Made by a program: the position numbers and the translations under genes. From IMG/VR virus record IMGVR_UViG_3300029745_000310, positions 1 to 7,284 of that record: a stretch of 7,284 nt of DNA; one strand, 5' to 3'. The notes below the pieces were generated by a model, which was not told where the DNA came from, searched no databases, and saw only the letters and a list, made by a program, of their open reading frames with translations. This DNA comes from a virus. Taxonomy: Duplodnaviria; Heunggongvirae; Uroviricota; Caudoviricetes. The stretch's first letter is position 1. Each line of letters begins with the position of its first letter. Positions 1-7,284 of this stretch are shown here, piece by piece.

Positions 1-1164
1 TTATGCTTTCTTTGCATCCTCAAAAACCTCAGGGTGGGACAAATTTGGGACATCGTCACCCAATATGTCGTCAATTTTCCTCGCGTGCTCTGTCAAATGA
101 TTAGGTGCAAGGTGTGCGTACCTACGCACCATTTCGATAGACTCCCAGCCGCCCATTTCCTGAAGTACTGACAGTGGTACACCTGACTGAATTAACCAAC
201 TGGCCCAGGTATGGCGGAGGTCATGAAAACGGAAATTTTCAATTCCTGCCCGACGACATGCTGTTAACCACGATGTGTTATAGTCCAGGCGCATCTTTCT
301 GATGCTTGGTGTCATTGTCCCGTCAGGCCTTCTGGCAGCAGTGGTATAAACAAACACCCAGCGGTGATGTTTGCCTATTTGATCACGCAACACCTTGCAG
401 GCAGTGTCATTCAGTGCGACCCCAATAGCGCGGTTTGACTTACTGTCTTCAGGGTTTACCCAGGCAACACGTCGCTGCATATCGATTTGTTGCCACTCCA
501 GATTAATAATGTTTGATCTCCTCAGGCCAGTTGCCAGTGCAAATTTAACTACAGATTTCAGGGGATCAGAACATGCATCAATGAGTCTCCTGGCTTCTTC
601 TTTTTCCAGCCATCTCACGCGTTTGTTTTTTACGGCAGGTATTTTGATTACAGGTGCTTTTTCAAGCCATTTCCAGTCTCGCTCTGCGGCGCGCAGAATA
701 GCCTTGATCATTGCCAGGTGTGTTGCTTTTGTTTGCGTGCTCACCGATTTAGGTATATAGGCTGGTGGTTCTTTCCCTTTTCTTAATGCAGCCTCCACCT
801 GCAACTTCCATCTCTCCTTTGTTTTTCGGTTATACGCTTTGCTGATAACTGAGTAGATCATTGCCTCCGATATATCCTTAATCCTTATTCCCTCGAAATG
901 CTCAATCCAGAATGCGATTCTGGATTTATCGGAATCGATGGATTTCTTGTCGGCTTTTTCCTCAAGCCATCTCAGGCAGGCTTCTTCGAAAGTGACATCT
1001 GGCATATCCCCCAGTCTGTCTACTCGCCAGAGTTCTGCTTTTCGCTTGTCGTGCAACTCCTGAGCTTGCCGCTTGTCCTTTGTGCCAAGAGACTCCTTAA
1101 TTCGCTTCCCGCCCGGGAGCGAGTACGAGGCGTACCATATTTCACCTCTGCGGAAGAGTGACAT
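1..1164 (-). CDS. intD: Phage tyrosine integrase (IntD/IntR-like, lambdoid prophage)
   Basis: 387-aa ORF with ATG at 1164..1162 preceded by SD-like AGAGGAAAG. N-terminus [12 protein letters not shown] and C-terminal catalytic region [11 protein letters not shown] ... [15 protein letters not shown] (Arg/His/Tyr active-site pattern of tyrosine recombinases) match my recollection of the E. coli cryptic-prophage integrases IntD/IntR. Stop codon is the first three bases of the window. Confidence 0.93.
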
Positions 1165-1724: not shown

Positions 1725-2420
1725 CTATCGCCATTGCTCCCCAAATACAAAACCAATTTCAGCCAGTGCCTCGTCCATTTTTTCGATGAACTCCGGTACC
1801 ATTTCGTCAAAAACCTCCATGTATTTTTCATCCCGTTCGACCACGACATAATGCAGGCCTTCACGCTTCATACGCGGGTCATAGTTGGCAAAGTACCAGG
1901 CATCTTTTCGCGTCACCCACATGCTGTACTGCACCTGGGCCATGTAAGCCGACTTTATGGCCTCGAAACCACCGAGCCGGAACTTCATGAAATCCCGGGA
2001 GGTAAACGGGCATTTCAGTTCAAGGCCATTGCCGTCACTGCATAAACCATCGGGAGAGCAGGCGGTGCGCATACTTTCGTCGCGATAGATGATCGGGGAT
2101 TCAATAACATTTACGCCGGAAGTGAACTCAAACAGGGTTCTGGCGTCGTTCTCGTACTGTTTTCCCCAGGCCAGTGCTTTAGCGTTAACTTCCGGAGCCA
2201 CACCGGTGCAAACCTCGGCAAGCAGGGTGTGGAAGTAGGACATTTTCATGTCAGGCCACTTCTTTCCTGAGCGGGGCTTTGCTATCACGTTGTGAACTTC
2301 TGAAGCGGTGATGACGCCGAGCCGTAATTTGTGCCACGCATCATCCCCCTGTTCGACAGCTCTCACGTCGATCCCGGTAACGATATCCGTCTGATGCGTG
2401 AACGTGATGGACGTAACCAC
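1725..2420 (-). pseudogene. exoD: Lambda Exo-family 5'-3' exonuclease (Red-alpha/YqaJ-like), N-terminus replaced, no ATG start
   Basis: Translation from about 2377 down to the stop at 1725 ([30 protein letters not shown] ... [11 protein letters not shown]) is near-identical to phage lambda Exo as I recall it. The first ~10 codons of lambda Exo (MTPDIILQRT) are replaced by unrelated sequence, and the frame has no in-frame ATG upstream of the homology; the only candidates are GTG at 2420 (no SD) and TTG at 2540. Body appears otherwise intact, so it could still be expressed from a non-canonical start. Confidence 0.75.
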
Positions 2421-2429
2421 CGCGACATG

Positions 2430-2615
2430 TGTGTACTGTTCCGCTGGGCCTGCCAGGACAACTTCTGGTCCGGTAACGTGCTGAGTCCGGCCAAACTCCG
2501 CGACAAGTGGACCCAGCTCGAAATCAACCGGAACAAGCAACAGGCTGGCGTGACAGTCGGCAAACCAAAACTCGACCTGACAAACACTGACTGGATTTAC
2601 GGGGTGGATCTATGA
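2430..2615 (+). pseudogene. Replication initiator O, C-terminal remnant only
   Basis: Plus-strand frame ends ...[38 protein letters not shown] with TGA at 2613..2615 overlapping the P start in an ATGA junction, exactly the lambda O/P arrangement. Homology is secure from about 2502; the left boundary (about 2430) is approximate. No N-terminal DNA-binding domain or ori iterons are present. Confidence 0.7.
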
Positions 2616-3313
2616 AAAACATCGCCGCACAGATGGTTAACTTTGACCGTGAGCAGATGCGTCGGATCGCCAACAACATGCCGGAACAGTACGACGAAAA
2701 GCCACAGGTACAGCAGGTAGCGCAGATCATCAACGGTGTGTTCAGCCAGTTACTGGCAACTTTCCCGGCGAGCCTGGCTAACCGTGACCAGAATGAACTG
2801 AACGAAATCCGCCGCCAGTGGGTGCTGGCTTTTCGGGAAAACGGGATCACCACAATGGAACAGGTTAACGCTGGAATGCGCGTAGCCCGTCGGCAGAATC
2901 GACCATTCCTGCCATCACCCGGGCAGTTTGTCGCCTGGTGCCGGGAAGAAGCATCCGTTACCGCCGGGCTGCCAAACGCCAGCGAGCTGGTTGATATGGT
3001 TTACGAGTATTGCCGGAAGCGCGGGCTGTATCCGGATGCAGAGTCTTATCCGTGGAAATCAAACGCGCACTACTGGCTGGTTACCAACCTGTATCAGAAC
3101 ATGCGGGCCAATGCGTTGACTGACGCGGAATTACGGCGCAAGGCTGCCGATGAACTGTCCTGTATGACCGCACGAATTAACCGTGGTGAGGCTATACCTG
3201 AACCAGTAAAACAACTTCCTGTCATGGGCGGTAGACCTCTAAATCGTGCACAGGCTCTGGCGAAGATCGCAGAAATCAAAGCTAAGTTTGGGCTGAAAGG
3301 AGCAAGGGTATGA
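2612..3313 (+). CDS. P: Lambda-type replication protein P (DnaB helicase loader)
   Basis: 233-aa ORF MKNIAAQMVNFDREQMRRIANNMPEQYDEKPQVQQVAQIINGVFSQLLATFPASLANRDQNE ... AKIAEIKAKFGLKGARV, near-identical along its length to phage lambda P as I recall it. Start overlaps the O-remnant stop (ATGA); stop overlaps the ren start (ATGA at 3310..3313). Confidence 0.93.
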   Translation: MKNIAAQMVNFDREQMRRIANNMPEQYDEKPQVQQVAQIINGVFSQLLATFPASLANRDQNELNEIRRQWVLAFRENGITTMEQVNAGMRVARRQNRPFLPSPGQFVAWCREEASVTAGLPNASELVDMVYEYCRKRGLYPDAESYPWKSNAHYWLVTNLYQNMRANALTDAELRRKAADELSCMTARINRGEAIPEPVKQLPVMGGRPLNRAQALAKIAEIKAKFGLKGARV

Positions 3314-3612
3314 CGGGCAAAGAGTCAATTATTCATTACCTGGGGACTCATAAGAAATTCTGTGCGCAGGACGTTGCCGCGGTAACAGGCGCAACGGTAA
3401 CCAGCATAAATCAGGCTGCGGCTAAAATGGCGCGGGCAGGAATCCTAGTCGTTGATGGTAAGGTCTGGCGAACGGTGTATTATCGGTTCGCTACCAGAGA
3501 AGAATGGGAAGGAAAGGTGAGCACGAATTTGATTTTTAAGGAGTGTCGCCAGAGTGCCGCGATGAAACGGGTATTGAGGGTATATAAAAGAACATCAATG
3601 GGTACACAATGA
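3310..3612 (+). CDS. ren: Ren protein (lambda ren homolog)
   Basis: 100-aa ORF MTGKESIIHYLGTHKKFCAQDVAAVTGATVTSINQAAAKMARAGILVVDGKVWRTVYYRFATREEWEGK ... closely matches lambda Ren as I recall it. Strong SD AAGGAG at 3297..3302, and the ATG overlaps the P stop. Confidence 0.88.
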   Translation: MTGKESIIHYLGTHKKFCAQDVAAVTGATVTSINQAAAKMARAGILVVDGKVWRTVYYRFATREEWEGKVSTNLIFKECRQSAAMKRVLRVYKRTSMGTQ

Positions 3613-3629
3613 TGAAACAGGTGAGTTGA

Positions 3630-3664
3630 GTTCAAACTGTAGTACAATTCTCTCCAGTTTGAAC
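3630..3664. repeat. Perfect 10-bp inverted repeat GTTCAAACTG-N15-CAGTTTGAAC between ren and emrE
   Basis: Read directly: 3630..3639 GTTCAAACTG and 3655..3664 CAGTTTGAAC are exact reverse complements, separated by a 15-nt spacer. The right arm ends one base before the emrE SD (AGGAAA 3665..3670). No U-tract follows, so it is not a classic intrinsic terminator. Confidence 0.6.
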
Positions 3665-3679
3665 AGGAAAGAATATGCT

Positions 3680-4012
3680 ATGAATCCTTATATTTATCTT
3701 GGTGGTGCAATACTTGCAGAGGTCATTGGTACAACCTTAATGAAGTTTTCAGAAGGTTTTACACGGTTATGGCCATCTGTTGGTACAATTATTTGTTATT
3801 GTGCATCATTCTGGTTATTAGCTCAGACGCTGGCTTATATTCCTACAGGGATTGCTTATGCTATCTGGTCAGGAGTCGGTATTGTCCTGATTAGCTTACT
3901 ATCATGGGGATTTTTCGGCCAACGGTTGGACCTGCCAGCCATTATAGGCATGATGTTGATTTGTGCCGGTGTGTTGGTTATTAATTTATTGTCACGAAGC
4001 ACACCACATTAA
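3680..4012 (+). CDS. emrE: Small multidrug resistance (SMR) efflux transporter EmrE
   Basis: 110-aa product MNPYIYLGGAILAEVIGTTLMKFSEGFTRLWPSVGTIICYCASFWLLAQTLAYIPTGIAYAIWSGVGIVLISLLSWGFFGQRLDLPAIIGMMLICAGVL.INLLSRSTPH matches E. coli EmrE as I recall it, including the essential Glu14 (AILAEVIG). ATG at 3680 with SD AGGAAA 9 nt upstream. The listed ORF start at 3626 is a TTG extension. AT-rich relative to the P/ren backbone. Confidence 0.96.
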   Translation: MNPYIYLGGAILAEVIGTTLMKFSEGFTRLWPSVGTIICYCASFWLLAQTLAYIPTGIAYAIWSGVGIVLISLLSWGFFGQRLDLPAIIGMMLICAGVLVINLLSRSTPH

Positions 4013-4043
4013 AAATAATTTGTTTTTAAACGACTAAAATATG

Positions 4044-4084
4044 GAGGCTCGTATATTTATATGGGCCTCGTTTTATGCTTTTTG
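4044..4084 (+). terminator. Possible intrinsic terminator downstream of emrE
   Basis: GAGGC (4044..4048) ... GCCTC (4065..4069) short stem followed by the T-rich run GTTTTATGCTTTTTG (4070..4084). Stem is short and loop long, so this is weak. Confidence 0.35.
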
Positions 4085-4112
4085 TTAATGTCTTTAGTTT
4101 TTATTCATTCTT

Positions 4113-4267
4113 TTGTGCTTTCAAGATTATGGTGTAAGAAAATTGCAATACGATTATTGTTGTATATTCAAGATAATGTGACCTTAATTGTCTTTTTAAA
4201 TAAAAATTAAACAAAAATCATATCTCACCACTAAGGTTTATAAAAGCATACTTTAGCAGGTGTCACC
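4113..4267 (+). promoter_or_regulatory. AT-rich upstream region of the recombinase gene with a direct repeat (TTCAAGAT at 4120..4127 and 4167..4174)
   Basis: 255-bp intergenic region of very low GC. TTCAAGATtATGgTG (4120..4134) and TTCAAGATaATGTG (4167..4180) form an imperfect direct repeat 47 bp apart. A possible sigma70-like pair is GTGACC (4178..4183) and TAAAAT (4201..4206) with a 17-bp spacer. SD AGGTG at 4258..4262 precedes ATG 4268. The promoter assignment is a guess. Confidence 0.3.
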
Positions 4268-5794
4268 ATGAAAAAAGCCATAGCATATATGCGATTTTCA
4301 TCACCAAGTCAGATGTCTGGTGATTCATTAAACCGCCAGAGAAGGCTTATTACTGAATGGCTAAAGGTAAATAGTGATTATTACCTTGATACCGTAACGT
4401 ATGAAGATTTGGGGTTAAGCGCATTCAATGGAAAGCATGCACAATCAGGAGCTTTTTCGGAATTTTTAGATGCTATAGAACATGGTTATATATTGCCAGG
4501 GACTACATTGTTAGTTGAAAGTCTGGACAGACTTTCAAGAGAAAAAGTCGGTGAAGCGATTGAGCGTCTGAAATTGATTTTGAATCACGGTATTGATGTT
4601 ATAACTCTTTGCGATAATACAGTCTATAATATTGACTCATTGAATGAGCCATATTCATTAATAAAAGCCATACTTATAGCACAAAGGGCAAATGAAGAAA
4701 GCGAGATAAAGTCAAGTCGGGTTAAATTATCATGGAAGAAAAAACGGCAGGATGCACTGGAGTCAGGCACGATTATGACGGCGTCTTGTCCGAGATGGCT
4801 CTCATTGGATGACAAAAGAACGGCTTTTGTTCCAGACCCCGACAGGGTGAAAACTATTGAGCTAATTTTTAAACTCAGGATGGAAAGGCGCTCATTGAAT
4901 GCAATAGCCAAGTATTTAAATGATCATGCTGTAAAGAATTTCTCAGGAAAAGAAAGTGCATGGGGACCTTCTGTAATTGAAAAATTATTAGCGAATAAAG
5001 CTCTGATAGGTATATGCGTACCTTCATATCGTGCAAGAGGTAAAGGAATAAGTGAAATCGCTGGCTATTATCCCAGAGTCATATCAGATGATTTGTTTTA
5101 CGCTGTGCAGGAAATTCGGTTGGCACCTTTTGGTATTAGCAATAGTAGCAAAAATCCTATGTTGATAAATCTACTTCGAACAGTTATGAAGTGCGAGGCT
5201 TGTGGTAATACCATGATTGTTCATGCGGTATCTGGAAGTTTGCATGGCTATTATGTTTGTCCGATGAGAAGACTGCATCGATGTGACAGGCCATCAATAA
5301 AGAGAGATTTGGTTGATTATAATATCATTAATGAGTTGCTTTTTAATTGTAGTAAAATCCAACCAGTTGAAAACAAGAAAGATGCTAATGAAACTTTAGA
5401 GTTGAAAATTATTGAGCTCCAGATGAAAATTAATAATTTAATTGCTGCATTATCTGTTGCGCCTGAAGTTACCGCTATAGCAGAAAAAATCAGAGTATTA
5501 GATAAGGAATTACGAAGGGCTTCTGTATCATTAAAAACTTTGAAGAGTAAAGCGGTGAGTTCACTTGGTGATTTTCATGCTATTGACTTAACCAGTAAAA
5601 ATGGGCGAGAGCTATGTCGTACACTTGCCTATAAAACATTCGAAAAAATCATAATCAATACAGATAATAAAACCTGTGATATCTATTTTATGAATGGCAT
5701 TGTTTTTAAACACTATCCTTTAATGAAAACAATATCCGCCCAGCAGGCGATAAGTACTCTCAAATATATGGTTGATGGTGAGGTTTATTTTTGA
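4268..5794 (+). CDS. ybcK: Large serine recombinase family protein (YbcK-like; resolvase catalytic domain, recombinase domain, zinc ribbon, coiled coil)
   Basis: 508-aa ORF. N-terminal AIAYMRFSSPSQ fits the serine-recombinase nucleophile motif (compare YARVST.Q), and LLVESLDRLSR matches the conserved D-R-L-x-R catalytic motif. Central CPRWLS region, a Cys cluster CEACGNT ... YYVCPMRRLHRC (zinc ribbon), and a heptad-like stretch LELKIIELQMKINNLIAAL. Length and position immediately after emrE match my recollection of DLP12 ybcK (putative recombinase). Strongly AT-rich. Confidence 0.9.
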   Translation: MKKAIAYMRFSSPSQMSGDSLNRQRRLITEWLKVNSDYYLDTVTYEDLGLSAFNGKHAQSGAFSEFLDAIEHGYILPGTTLLVESLDRLSREKVGEAIERLKLILNHGIDVITLCDNTVYNIDSLNEPYSLIKAILIAQRANEESEIKSSRVKLSWKKKRQDALESGTIMTASCPRWLSLDDKRTAFVPDPDRVKTIELIFKLRMERRSLNAIAKYLNDHAVKNFSGKESAWGPSVIEKLLANKALIGICVPSYRARGKGISEIAGYYPRVISDDLFYAVQEIRLAPFGISNSSKNPMLINLLRTVMKCEACGNTMIVHAVSGSLHGYYVCPMRRLHRCDRPSIKRDLVDYNIINELLFNCSKIQPVENKKDANETLELKIIELQMKINNLIAALSVAPEVTAIAEKIRVLDKELRRASVSLKTLKSKAVSSLGDFHAIDLTSKNGRELCRTLAYKTFEKIIINTDNKTCDIYFMNGIVFKHYPLMKTISAQQAISTLKYMVDGEVYF

Positions 5795-5817
5795 GTAATA
5801 ATCACTTTTTCAACCGT

Positions 5818-5896
5818 GCTATAGTAAGAAAGTTAGGTAAGTACAATAAAATTATCTATCCTGAACGAAGCGTCCTGAGCTATGGTTTTACTATAG
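5818..5896. repeat. Inverted repeat GCTATAGTAA ... TTACTATAG (palindromic CTATAG cores) downstream of ybcK and upstream of the 99-aa ORF
   Basis: Read directly: CTATAGTAA at 5820..5828 and its exact reverse complement TTACTATAG at 5888..5896, separated by 59 bp. A related GCTATGG lies at 5878..5884. The region sits where GC content rises again, at the right edge of the AT-rich block. Confidence 0.5.
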
Positions 5897-5905
5897 GGAC
5901 TGCCA

Positions 5906-6205
5906 ATGGATGCTGGCGTTCTCGTTCTAGCAGTTCAACAATACCCAATCACAAAACAATTCACTGATAACAAACTTTGTGCACGTGCTTGGTTATGGCG
6001 AGCAGGTGATGTGATGTTAACTGCCTGCCAGAACGTTACTCCACTACTTCAGGTTGCGGAGCACCGCGAAGCCGGCCGCTTTACTTCTATCGAGCAAGAA
6101 TATCCCCAGATACTCAACAGAGCGCGAGCAATCCTCGCCAGAGAAACGGCACATGTAAAATTCCAGCCGTGGCTGGATGATAAGTGGAGTCGAGTGTTAC
6201 CATAA
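5906..6205 (+). CDS. Hypothetical protein (99 aa), unknown function
   Basis: ATG at 5906 with SD-like AGGGA 7 nt upstream; a stem-loop plus T-tract terminator follows at 6250..6288. GC content is higher than the flanking AT-rich DNA. No motif I recognise (MDAGVLVLAVQQYPITKQFTDNKLCARAWLWRAGDVMLTACQ...). Confidence 0.5.
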   Translation: MDAGVLVLAVQQYPITKQFTDNKLCARAWLWRAGDVMLTACQNVTPLLQVAEHREAGRFTSIEQEYPQILNRARAILARETAHVKFQPWLDDKWSRVLP

Positions 6206-6249
6206 TTCCGTCAGAATCTGTTCCAATAAAGTCACTAGTTAGAAATACT

Positions 6250-6288
6250 GCCAGCATTCTACGATGACGGAAGTGCTGGCATTTTTTG
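6250..6288 (+). terminator. Intrinsic terminator-like hairpin followed by T-tract
   Basis: GCCAGCA (6250..6256) pairs with TGCTGGC (6274..6280) across a 17-nt loop and is followed by ATTTTTTGG (6281..6289). It lies 45 bp downstream of the 99-aa ORF stop. Confidence 0.5.
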
Positions 6289-6405
6289 GGTAATATGCGA
6301 GTCCATTTCATAAAATACGGGTGCTGTAAACTGGACGATATAATCTAAAATATACCATTACCAGTAGCGTTCAAATCGCTATGTGCCGATACGGATAAAA
6401 TTATA

Positions 6406-6436
6406 TTGATTGTGCACATACCTTATTGGATATTAC
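6406..6436 (+). promoter_or_regulatory. Candidate sigma70 promoter for the 169-aa ORF
   Basis: TTGATT (6406..6411) as -35, about 17-19 bp spacer, then GATATT/TATTAC (6429..6436) as -10, roughly 30 bp upstream of ATG 6464. Sequence-pattern guess only. Confidence 0.3.
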
Positions 6437-6463
6437 TGAGGGGTATTTATATAAGGTGTAACG

Positions 6464-6973
6464 ATGATGTGGAACTTTGACAGTGCCGACTTAAGTGCAA
6501 TAGCAGCAGGTATTTCTGCGTTTGGCACATTAGCCGCAGCGGGGTCGGCGCTTGCAAGTTGGTACACGTCAAAAAAAGCGCTGCAGCTACAAAATAGAGT
6601 TTACCTTTATGAGTCTTTAAAGGCTTGCGCTGAGAGAGCCAATTCATCAGCTAAAGATAAGCGCGGATCTGAATGGAGCGTTAATGATGCAGCGGATATC
6701 ATCAGGTGCCTAGTACGGGCGATGGAGATCATCAAGCAGGATAGCCAGCAGAAAGAAGGTAATCAGGCATTAATGTTGAAACAGTACTTTGTTAATCTGC
6801 TAATAATGGAACTGTACGAGGAAGTTCATAACGGTGATGCGGCTGATTCTGTTTTTAAAAGTACGGAACCTACACAAGTACTTGATAACTTATGGAGCAA
6901 ATGGCAGGAGGCTATAGCTTTTTTTGATATTTGGAATTACCCAGTTGCGACTGAGGAAGACTTGGCAGACTAA
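6464..6973 (+). CDS. Hypothetical membrane-anchored protein (169 aa): N-terminal hydrophobic helix plus acidic helical soluble domain
   Basis: Tandem ATG ATG at 6464/6467 with AAGGTG 5 nt upstream. Residues about 10-33 (LSAIAAGISAFGTLAAAGSALASWY) form a single predicted transmembrane or signal-anchor segment; the remaining ~135 aa are charged and helical in composition. Preceded by an AT-rich intergenic region with its own promoter-like sequence. No homolog I recognise. Confidence 0.6.
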   Translation: MMWNFDSADLSAIAAGISAFGTLAAAGSALASWYTSKKALQLQNRVYLYESLKACAERANSSAKDKRGSEWSVNDAADIIRCLVRAMEIIKQDSQQKEGNQALMLKQYFVNLLIMELYEEVHNGDAADSVFKSTEPTQVLDNLWSKWQEAIAFFDIWNYPVATEEDLAD

Positions 6974-7053
6974 TTTTCAGCACATTTGATTTCCAATAAT
7001 CAACCAGCCATAATCATGCCATTGGGGCCTGAACAACTCCGGTGACTTCTGCG

Positions 7054-7284
7054 CTAAACGGGGACGTTTATGCGCACATACAATCCAACCTCTCTTCTCC
7101 ATTCACAGATGCAGAAATGCACCTGCGATATTTTGCATCCAGCGTTTGATCTCTGCGGAGGTGAAGCGTGAACCTCCCACAAGATGGTATCAAATTGCAT
7201 CGCGGTAACTTCACCGCTATCGGTGTCAGCGCCAGTGATATAAGACGGTAATTCACCATTTGGATTGTCCGCTCCACCCAACAT
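7054..7284 (-). CDS. Partial ORF, 3' end of a convergent gene truncated by the window edge; unknown function
   Basis: Frame is open from the window edge (7284) to TAG at 7056..7054: ...[36 protein letters not shown].... Its amino-acid composition looks more protein-like than the competing overlapping frame (7068..7277). Nothing further to support it. Confidence 0.3.

What the first reader, a model, noticed from the sequence alone, without database searches (positions are those of the whole stretch)
3613..5905. AT-rich cargo block (emrE plus serine recombinase) bounded by inverted repeats that share a GTA(A)GTACAAT motif
GC content drops sharply after ren (3612) and recovers near 5900. The block carries emrE and a large serine recombinase gene. 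Its left edge has a perfect 10-bp inverted repeat (3630..3664) and its right edge a 9-bp inverted repeat (5820..5896); both contain AGTACAAT (3641..3648 and 5840..5847). Large serine recombinases act on short, imperfectly palindromic att sites, so these could be relics of the sites through which the cargo entered, or operators. The shared 8-mer could also be chance or simply -10-like promoter hexamers (TACAAT).
Basis: inference. Interest (0 to 1): 0.55.

Follow-up and report, generated by a model that had tools for sequence, protein, structure and literature searches.

The report
Phage cargo slot; repeats not boundaries
This is the known emrE–ybcK cargo region of a DLP12-type lambda-like prophage of E. 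coli; the two "bounding" inverted repeats are not insertion boundaries, the left motif is the -10 box of the emrE promoter, and the right one is a chance match found in only one allele.

Summary
The att-site interpretation fails.

- **Boundaries.** Relatives place the variable region at 3586 to 6984. It starts inside the last codons of ren and ends just before ybcN. It is a mosaic of at least three modules: emrE with its own promoter and terminator, ylcJ-ybcK, and an antirepressor remnant plus an unknown ORF.
- **Left repeat.** It lies 44 bp inside the left boundary and stays with emrE in genomes that lack ybcK. Its TACAAT sits 8 nt upstream of a published Cappable-seq transcription start (W3656). 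It is therefore the emrE -10 box.
- **Right repeat.** It straddles a module junction. The repeat and its AGTACAAT are absent from other prophages and phages whose YbcK is 97-98% identical.
- **Shared 8-mer.** A match this long occurs in 9-17% of shuffles.

Verdict: an ordinary, already known lambdoid cargo slot. Two questions remain open: whether the palindrome around the emrE promoter is an operator, and what the conserved orphan recombinase does.

The parts
3310..3612 (+). ren. Its last 27 nt (3586-3612) already belong to the variable cargo.
   Evidence: Annotated as Ren in relatives. Homology to lambda-type ren stops at W3585; it stops at W3576-3581 in ren-only prophages with other cargo.
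3585..3586 (.). True left junction of the variable cargo slot.
   Evidence: E. albertii, E. whittamii and E. ruysiae remnants start at W3579-3588.
3621..3626 (+). Weak -35-like hexamer GTGAGT (3/6), 16-nt spacer to the -10. Lies in the block GGTGA.TT that is conserved across Escherichia.
   Evidence: Alignment A2 invariant columns. Assignment as a -35 is inference.
3630..3664 (.). Left inverted repeat: arms 3630-3639 and 3655-3664. Relative to the emrE transcription start they lie at -26..-17 and -1..+9.
   Evidence: The right arm degrades to 9/10, 8/10 and 7/10 pairs in the E. coli fliE-type locus, E. whittamii/ruysiae and E. albertii.
3643..3648 (+). TACAAT, the -10 hexamer of the emrE promoter. 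It is the core of the left AGTACAAT.
   Evidence: Conserved as TACAAT or TAGAAT in five Escherichia lineages and in Citrobacter murliniae. The Cappable-seq transcription start lies 8 nt downstream.
3656..3656 (+). emrE transcription start (an A), giving a 24-nt 5' UTR.
   Evidence: PMC4782308 supplementary file 1 lists a + strand start at U00096.2 567,514. The offset to the window is fixed by ATG-24 and by the sigma54 table of PMC4591121.
3680..4012 (+). emrE, a small multidrug resistance (SMR) efflux transporter.
   Evidence: PF00893, E 2e-35; annotations.
4044..4076 (+). emrE intrinsic terminator: hairpin followed by a T-run.
   Evidence: A homologous terminator with a different stem sequence follows emrE in E. 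albertii and E. whittamii.
4061..4210 (+). ylcJ, a 49-aa hydrophobic ORF whose start codon lies inside the emrE terminator.
   Evidence: PF23688, E 2e-30; annotated as ylcJ.
4268..5794 (+). ybcK, an intact large serine recombinase with no identified substrate sites.
   Evidence: Pfam; phrog_95 integrase. The family profile matches the SPbeta large serine recombinase, E 1e-18. R9, S11 and Q15 are invariant.
5795..5870 (+). ybcK 3' spacer, shared in diverged form by all ybcK contexts. The patch 5820-5860 is hypervariable.
5819..5896 (.). Right 9-bp inverted repeat (5819-5827 and 5888-5896) with AGTACAAT at 5840-5847. Specific to one allele and judged to be chance.
5906..6205 (+). Remnant ORF with a P22 antirepressor C-terminal domain.
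   Evidence: PF10548, E 9e-13; phrog_7640 and phrog_245.
6464..6973 (+). 169-aa ORF of unknown function (phrog_1779), part of the variable cargo.
6985..7224 (+). Start of the constant backbone: a small ORF and the 5' part of ybcN. It opens with the palindrome TTGATT-N6-AATCAA at 6986-7003.
   Evidence: Homology resumes here in every relative, whatever its cargo.

Best explanation
The interval is part of the variable cargo ('moron') slot between ren and ybcN in DLP12-type lambdoid phages and prophages. In this window the slot runs from 3586 to 6984.

It is a mosaic of three modules.
1. An emrE expression cassette, about 3586-4080. It has its own sigma70 promoter (-10 TACAAT at 3643-3648, transcription start at 3656), a Shine-Dalgarno sequence, the gene, and an intrinsic terminator.
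2. ylcJ-ybcK, about 4080-5870. This is an AT-rich unit that the literature reports as H-NS-bound and Rho-terminated. It encodes an intact orphan large serine recombinase.
3. A decayed antirepressor fragment plus an unknown ORF.

The modules were joined and exchanged by illegitimate and homologous recombination between phages, not by recombinase action at the two inverted repeats.

The left AGTACAAT is the emrE -10 box. The 10-bp arms around it happen to be perfect only in the DLP12 lineage; they may or may not add an operator function. The right repeat and its 8-mer are a coincidence confined to one allele of the ybcK 3' spacer.

Shown: the boundaries, the modularity, the promoter and transcription start, and the non-conservation of the right motif. 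Inferred: the -35 assignment and the mode of module exchange.
For: Boundaries
- ren-only prophages and lambda lose homology at W3576-3585, and all relatives regain it at W6984/6985.
- The slot holds different cargo in different relatives: YajG-like lipoprotein, SIR2 protein, alpha/beta hydrolase, ybcL-ybcM, hypothetical ORFs.

Modularity
- emrE occurs without ybcK next to fliE in many E. coli.
- It occurs next to argU in E. whittamii and E. ruysiae, and in an int-emrE-ybcL-ybcM islet in E. albertii.
- K-12 differs from the fliE-type locus by a 2,096-bp ylcJ-ybcK segment.
- Right-hand homology ends at about 5870 in K-12. O157 has a deletion from 5860 to 6087 at a CTATC microhomology. EC32 and Perceval end at 6075, and Turner at 6201.

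Promoter
- TAsAAT is conserved.
- The Cappable-seq transcription start maps to W3656.
- A 9-bp insertion 39 bp upstream of emrE, which is W3641, arose under paraquat selection (bioRxiv 10.1101/2022.12.20.521246).

Right motif
- It is absent from alleles B and C, which carry intact ybcK.

Statistics and literature
- Shuffle tests.
- H-NS and RpoD SELEX sites in the emrE-ybcK spacer: PMC3946193.
- Rho terminator in the ybcK leader: PMC4150792.
- Phage Perceval has its own tyrosine integrase and Xis in addition to emrE-ybcK.
Against: - The left palindrome is rarer than chance: about 0.1 expected per 3.4 kb.
- Pairing potential is partly kept across Escherichia: 85.7% of cells pair if G-U is allowed, with two double-sided changes in E. 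albertii, and only 14 of 500 shuffles do as well. Some function beyond the -10 box is therefore not excluded.
- The transcription start was measured in K-12, not in this strain. The sequence from -62 to the ATG is identical.
- No substrate sites for YbcK were found, so its role is unexplained.
Confidence: 0.8

Rival explanations
1. The two inverted repeats are relics (attL/attR-like) of the sites through which YbcK inserted the emrE-ybcK block.
For: A large serine recombinase is present and looks catalytically intact. The left repeat is 35 bp, partly palindromic, and rarer than chance. The two sites share an 8-mer.
Against: - Neither repeat lies at a junction: the boundaries are 3585/3586 and 6984/6985.
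- The left repeat stays with emrE where ybcK is absent.
- The right repeat straddles the ybcK/antirepressor module junction at about 5870. It is missing in alleles B and C, whose YbcK is 97-98% identical.
- The 8-mer sharing is at chance level.
- The left 8-mer is a promoter -10 box.
Confidence: 0.03
2. The left palindrome GTTCAAACTG-N15-CAGTTTGAAC is an operator. A dimeric repressor would bind arms at -26..-17 and -1..+9 and occlude the emrE promoter.
For: - The arms flank the experimentally supported -10 box and transcription start.
- The palindrome is rarer than chance.
- The symmetric double changes in E. albertii also fit co-evolving half-sites.
- A selected insertion maps into the spacer.
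Against: - The symmetry decays to 8/10 and 7/10 in sister species without consistent compensation.
- The centre-to-centre distance of 25 bp is unusual for a dimer (own knowledge).
- No second copy of the half-site occurs in the K-12, fliE-type or E. albertii loci or elsewhere in the window.
- No candidate regulator is encoded in the window.
Confidence: 0.2
3. The left repeat acts as an RNA hairpin in read-through transcripts coming from P and ren. It would modulate the stability or translation of emrE, possibly alternating with a fold that pairs GUUCA with the AUGAAC start region.
For: - The hairpin forms in the minimum-free-energy fold of 3600-3700.
- 85.7% of cells pair with G-U allowed.
- RNAalifold finds an alternative pairing that covers the Shine-Dalgarno sequence and the AUG.
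- renD-emrE is listed as one transcription unit in PMC3946193.
Against: - The mapped emrE transcript starts at 3656 and so lacks the left arm.
- The region folds no better than shuffles, z = 0.0.
- RNAalifold does not choose the hairpin, and its covariation term is unfavourable, +0.82.
- There is no Rfam match.
- There is no U-tract, so it is not a terminator.
Confidence: 0.1

Closest known systems
emrE-ylcJ-ybcK region of the DLP12 cryptic prophage of E. coli K-12
   Same: Same gene order ren-emrE-ylcJ-ybcK, 95.9% identity over W3399-5833. Identical emrE promoter region. Same argU-intD setting.
   Different: - The window has an intact ren; K-12 has an IS3 insertion in it.
- Downstream of ybcK the window has an antirepressor remnant plus a phrog_1779 ORF, where K-12 has ybcL-ybcM.
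- The ybcK 3' spacer is a different allele (A versus C).
- The window ends in an IS3-family element that cuts ybcN.
Moron/cargo slot between ren and the nin region of lambdoid phages (lambda: 73-bp ren-ninB spacer containing tR2)
   Same: - Same position between conserved backbone genes.
- Contents are interchangeable among relatives.
- The cargo has its own promoter and terminator.
- The composition is AT-rich.
   Different: Lambda itself carries only tR2 there. In the DLP12 family the right flank is ybcN preceded by a small ORF and the TTGATT-N6-AATCAA palindrome, and it is not homologous to lambda ninB.
att sites of large serine recombinases (phiC31, Bxb1, SPbeta SprA)
   Same: The left repeat is about 35 bp and partly palindromic, near a gene for a recombinase of that family.
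   Different: - It is not at a junction.
- It is independent of the presence of ybcK.
- It contains a working -10 box.
- The proposed partner site is not conserved.
Palindromic operators overlapping promoters of multidrug-efflux genes (for example QacR IR1 at qacA; recalled from memory, used as a lead only)
   Same: A palindrome overlaps the core promoter and transcription start of an efflux gene.
   Different: - No cognate regulator gene is nearby.
- The symmetry is not conserved in sister species.
- The arm spacing is atypical.

Membership tests
Large serine recombinase (YbcK protein) | N-terminal resolvase-type catalytic domain with the serine nucleophile and conserved Arg/Asp residues | tested here: met
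   PF00239, E 1e-18. R9, S11, Q15, D87, R88 and R91 are invariant in 24 homologues. Matches the TP901-1 integrase catalytic domain.
Large serine recombinase (YbcK protein) | Recombinase domain plus zinc-ribbon domain C-terminal to the catalytic domain | tested here: met
   PF07508 and PF13408. The family profile aligns with SPbeta YokA/SprA over residues 143-472, E 1e-18. Matches phrog_95 integrase.
Large serine recombinase (YbcK protein) | Cognate att or recombination sites and demonstrable recombination | not testable with these tools
   No sites were identified. Flanks are not conserved among homologues at 50-60% identity. Needs an assay.
Recombinase att-site relics (the two inverted repeats) | They lie exactly at the junction between inserted and flanking DNA | tested here: not met
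   Junctions are at 3585/3586 and 6984/6985. Internal module junctions are at about 4080 and about 5870.
Recombinase att-site relics (the two inverted repeats) | They co-occur with the recombinase and are conserved wherever it is present | tested here: not met
   The left repeat is present without ybcK. The right repeat and 8-mer are absent from K-12, EC32, WP5, O157 and Perceval, which all have intact ybcK.
Recombinase att-site relics (the two inverted repeats) | The two sites share half-site sequence beyond chance | tested here: not met
   They share only an 8-mer; 9.4-16.5% of shuffles do as well.
Sigma70 promoter (left TACAAT) | -10 hexamer close to TATAAT, with a mapped transcription start 6-9 nt downstream | tested here: met
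   TACAAT matches 5/6. The Cappable-seq start at U00096.2 567,514 equals W3656, 8 nt after the hexamer.
Sigma70 promoter (left TACAAT) | -35 element at a 16-18 bp spacing | tested here: inconclusive
   Only GTGAGT (3/6) at 16 bp. The consensus scan did not call it, but the block GGTGA.TT is conserved.
Intrinsic terminator (left repeat, as a ren terminator) | GC-rich stem followed by a U-tract | tested here: not met
   No T-run follows 3664 on either strand. It was not called by the scan, which did call the emrE terminator at 4044-4069.
Known RNA families, including guanidine riboswitches that control SMR genes | Match to an Rfam covariance model | tested here: not met
   No hit at E<=1 in the whole window.
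Lambdoid moron/cargo slot | Variable gene content between conserved backbone genes in related phages, with an autonomous promoter and terminator and deviant composition | tested here: met

The most novel reading that the evidence does not exclude
ylcJ-ybcK (about W4080-5870) is a compact, self-contained serine-recombinase element. On this reading it inserted between the emrE terminator and the ybcL promoter of an older emrE-ybcL-ybcM cargo, and YbcK is still active on sites not yet recognised, for example within the AT-rich 4080-4267 leader or the 5795-5870 spacer.

The evidence that permits this: the ybcK-less emrE-ybcL-ybcM arrangements in E. albertii and at the E. coli fliE locus; the strict conservation of an intact YbcK in about a quarter of E. 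coli genomes and in viable phages that already have a tyrosine integrase; and homologues that sit at prophage ends in other genera.
Probability: 0.1. Interest if true: 0.5.

Novelty: already known. Interest (0 to 1): 0.12.

Why it matters
Practical value is limited. It removes a false lead: no att sites are here.

It does document three things.
- A drug and antiseptic efflux gene (emrE) travels on viable temperate phages as a self-sufficient cassette with its own promoter and terminator.
- The ren-ybcN interval is a recombination-prone slot that also receives defence-like genes.
- An intact large serine recombinase of unknown role is maintained in about 26% of complete E. coli genomes, alongside the phage's own tyrosine integrase. 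This is a modest open question.

Tried and rejected
- Rfam scan of the whole window at E<=1: nothing.
- Consensus promoter scan: did not call the emrE promoter, because the -35 is weak.
- Fold of each spacer: no better than shuffles.
- RNAalifold on seven Escherichia leaders: did not recover the hairpin, and the covariation term was unfavourable.
- Metagenome pattern scan for more leader variants: 69 emrE leaders, but almost all were the two E. coli haplotypes, so it added little covariation power.
- Flank comparison of YbcK homologues from Atlantibacter, Yersinia and Erwinia: homology is confined to the ORF, so no element ends could be defined.
- Single-sequence PDB search: no hit. A profile was needed.
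- PADLOC: no defence-system match for ylcJ, ybcK or the two downstream ORFs.
- Direct repeat D1 (3622-3648 versus 5332-5358, 21/27 matches): about one such match is expected by chance by my own estimate, so it was rejected.
- 16-nt inverted repeat 4369-4384 / 5795-5810 flanking most of ybcK: 15/16 here but 11/16 in K-12 and 14/16 in O157. Judged to be chance.
- Search for other copies of the half-site GTTCAAACTG: none.
- SMRT-Cappable-seq supplements: no emrE entry.
Full report
**What the window is.** The window is a defective DLP12-type lambdoid prophage of E. coli. Over 3400-6100 it is 100% identical to strain ML35, and over 1727-7224 it is 99.8% identical to strain Z217-2. Its content, in order:
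- intD (1-1164, minus strand);
- an exo fragment fused at about 2378 to the 3' end of O;
- P (2612-3313) and ren (3310-3612);
- emrE (3680-4012), ylcJ (4061-4210) and ybcK (4268-5794);
- a P22 antirepressor C-terminal remnant (5906-6205);
- a 169-aa ORF, phrog_1779 (6464-6973);
- the small ORF and the start of ybcN, from 6985;
- the end of an IS3-family element from 7222.

**Check of the observation.**
- The GC drop is real: 0.525 for 2612-3612 against 0.36 for 3613-5905. Recovery is partial, at 0.445, with another dip at 6200-6500.
- emrE and a complete large serine recombinase are confirmed.
- The left repeat is a perfect 10-bp palindrome, 3630-3639 with 3655-3664. This class is expected about 0.1 times per 3.4 kb. 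A second example lies inside the ybcK coding sequence.
- The right repeat is 9 bp with 60 nt between the arms, 5819-5827 with 5888-5896. It is within chance expectation and does not form in the predicted fold.
- AGTACAAT occurs twice. The two spacers share an 8-mer in 9-17% of shuffles.

**Where the boundaries really are.** Lambda and lambda-like phages lose homology to the window at W3585, 27 nt before the ren stop codon. DLP12-like prophages with other cargo lose it at 3576-3581. All relatives regain homology at 6984/6985, whatever lies in between. The interval holds, in different relatives:
- two hypothetical ORFs;
- a YajG-like lipoprotein;
- a SIR2 protein;
- emrE-ybcK alone;
- emrE-ybcK plus an alpha/beta hydrolase;
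- emrE-ybcK plus ybcL-ybcM.

The variable slot is therefore 3586-6984, not 3613-5905.

**The block is a mosaic.** emrE occurs without ybcK in three settings:
- next to fliE, followed by ybcL-ybcM, in a large share of E. coli genomes;
- next to argU and a 171-bp intD remnant in E. whittamii, E. ruysiae and Escherichia sp. E1V33;
- in an integrase-emrE-ybcL-ybcM islet in E. albertii.

These all start between W3579 and W3603 and look like decay products of a ren-emrE junction. In E. albertii and E. whittamii emrE keeps a homologous terminator whose stem has a different sequence. The cassette therefore ends near W4080.

K-12 differs from the fliE-type locus by a 2,096-bp ylcJ-ybcK segment, replaced there by 17 bp. 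To the right of ybcK, a careful alignment shows homology among all ybcK contexts to about W5870. After that point:
- K-12 continues into the ybcL upstream region;
- O157 86-24 has a 226-bp deletion between two CTATC pentamers, 5860 to 6087;
- EC32 and phage Perceval share the antirepressor remnant to 6075 and then carry a hydrolase;
- phage Turner matches to 6201.

The two arms of the right repeat therefore sit in different modules.

**The right motif is not conserved.** The ybcK 3' spacer exists in three alleles.
- Allele A (window, Z217-2, Sx181, NWU_4) has AGTACAAT and both 9-bp arms.
- Allele B (EC32, WP5, Perceval, O157) reads AACTAATA or AACTACTA, with CTATGGTAT in place of the left arm.
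- Allele C (K-12) lacks the segment.

All three encode intact YbcK. The phages tested are 97-98% identical to the window's protein, and K-12 matches at 95.9% DNA identity. A site needed by, or left by, YbcK would not behave this way.

**What the left motif is.** Across Escherichia leaders the conserved elements are GGTGA.TT, TGTAGTAsAAT and the Shine-Dalgarno/ATG region. The right arm drifts from CAGTTTGAAC to CAGTATGAAC, CGGTATTAAC and CGGAATTATC.

I predicted a transcription start about 7-8 nt after TACAAT. The Cappable-seq table of Ettwiller et al. (PMC4782308, supplementary file 1) then listed a + strand start at U00096.2 567,514. The offset is fixed by emrE ATG = 567,538. It is cross-checked by the sigma54 table of PMC4591121: motif centre 567,568 equals W3710, and peak 567,582 + 543 equals the K-12 ybcK start. 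K-12 and the window are identical from -62 to the ATG.

The start is therefore W3656, 8 nt after TACAAT (3643-3648). The left AGTACAAT is the emrE -10 box. The repeat arms lie at -26..-17 and -1..+9, so the left arm is not in the emrE-promoter transcript. An adaptive 9-bp insertion 39 bp upstream of emrE (W3641) under paraquat selection fits a promoter-altering event (bioRxiv 10.1101/2022.12.20.521246).

**Residual question on the palindrome.** With G-U pairs allowed, 85.7% of cells pair, and E. albertii shows two double-sided changes. Only 14 of 500 shuffles do as well. However:
- there are only about four independent lineages;
- RNAalifold prefers a different fold with no covariation support;
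- the region is no more stable than shuffles;
- no other half-site copies exist.

I rate an operator role at about 0.2 and an RNA role in read-through transcripts at about 0.1.

**ybcK.** YbcK has all three domains and invariant catalytic residues. Its family profile matches the SPbeta large serine recombinase at E 1e-18. The ren-emrE-ybcK block is present at 80% coverage or more in 1,401 of 5,426 complete E. coli genomes. It is also in 12 sequenced coliphage records. One of these, Perceval, has its own tyrosine integrase and Xis, so YbcK is not that phage's integrase.

Homologues at 50-60% identity in Atlantibacter, Yersinia and Erwinia lie after the tail-fibre and assembly genes. Two of them are at the prophage end, next to ssrA or lepA. 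This is compatible with an ancestral integrase role, but only the ORF is conserved.

The literature reports H-NS and RpoD SELEX sites in the emrE-ybcK spacer (PMC3946193) and a Rho-dependent terminator in the ybcK leader (PMC4150792). No Cappable-seq start is listed between the emrE start and the interior of ybcK. This is consistent with a silenced gene.

**Verdict.** The proposed meaning is not supported. This is the known DLP12 emrE-ybcK cargo in a mosaic moron slot. One repeat is built around the emrE promoter, and the other is coincidental.

Noticed in passing
window 6986-7003; also L002 3504, L004 8970, L005 6576, L007 4229, L094 16437: The constant backbone to the right of the cargo slot begins in every relative with the palindrome TTGATT-N6-AATCAA. 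The arms are conserved while the 6-nt spacer differs in almost every context. This is the pattern expected of a protein-binding site or a recombination-prone boundary sequence.
   Followed up: partly
window 4044-4076 and 4061; L017 about 4360-4400; L014 about 4365-4400: The emrE intrinsic terminator is homologous in E. albertii and E. whittamii but has a different stem sequence, so the hairpin is maintained. The ylcJ start codon lies inside the 3' arm of this terminator.
   Followed up: partly
L005 5200-5237 versus window 4004-4041: In EC32 and Perceval, the junction between the antirepressor remnant and the alpha/beta-hydrolase module carries a 38-nt copy (84% identity) of the emrE stop-codon and 3' UTR sequence. 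This suggests the hydrolase module once sat directly after an SMR gene.
   Followed up: no
window 5856-5860 and 6083-6087; L006 about 4968-4972: O157:H7 86-24 has a 226-bp deletion relative to the window, between two CTATC pentamers. It is a clean microhomology deletion and shows how this slot is remodelled.
   Followed up: yes
window 3702-3718: GTGGTGCAATACTTGCA inside emrE corresponds to an intragenic sigma54 ChIP-seq binding site reported for K-12 (PMC4591121, site IS05).
   Followed up: no
window about 2378: The exo gene (minus strand) is fused to the 3' end of O. The whole immunity, N and recombination region is missing, so the prophage is defective and has no pR upstream of P-ren-emrE. 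K-12 DLP12 carries a different deletion.
   Followed up: partly
window 7222-7284: The last 63 nt match the ends of IS3-family elements on many E. coli plasmids at 100% identity. The element interrupts ybcN.
   Followed up: no
L008 6001-7530 with tmRNA at 8070-8432; L012 6001-7548; L010 6001-7530: YbcK homologues (50-60% identity) in Atlantibacter, Erwinia and Yersinia prophages sit just after the tail-fibre and tail-fibre-assembly genes. Two of them are the last gene before host ssrA or lepA.
   Followed up: partly
window 4515-4538 and 4369-4384 / 5795-5810: There is a second perfect 10-bp inverted repeat inside the ybcK coding sequence. A 16-nt (15/16) inverted repeat also pairs ybcK codons 34-39 with the first 16 nt after its stop codon. 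The latter drops to 11/16 in K-12 and was judged to be chance.
   Followed up: yes
window 5820-5860: This is a hypervariable patch in the ybcK 3' spacer: about 14 differences in 40 nt between alleles A and B, while the 25 nt before it are identical.
   Followed up: partly
K-12 U00096.2 567,166 and 567,241 (L004 about 4629 and 4704): Cappable-seq lists + strand transcription starts at the right end of the IS3 copy that interrupts ren in K-12. This may be an outward-reading promoter feeding into emrE. It does not apply to this window, which has no IS3 there.
   Followed up: no
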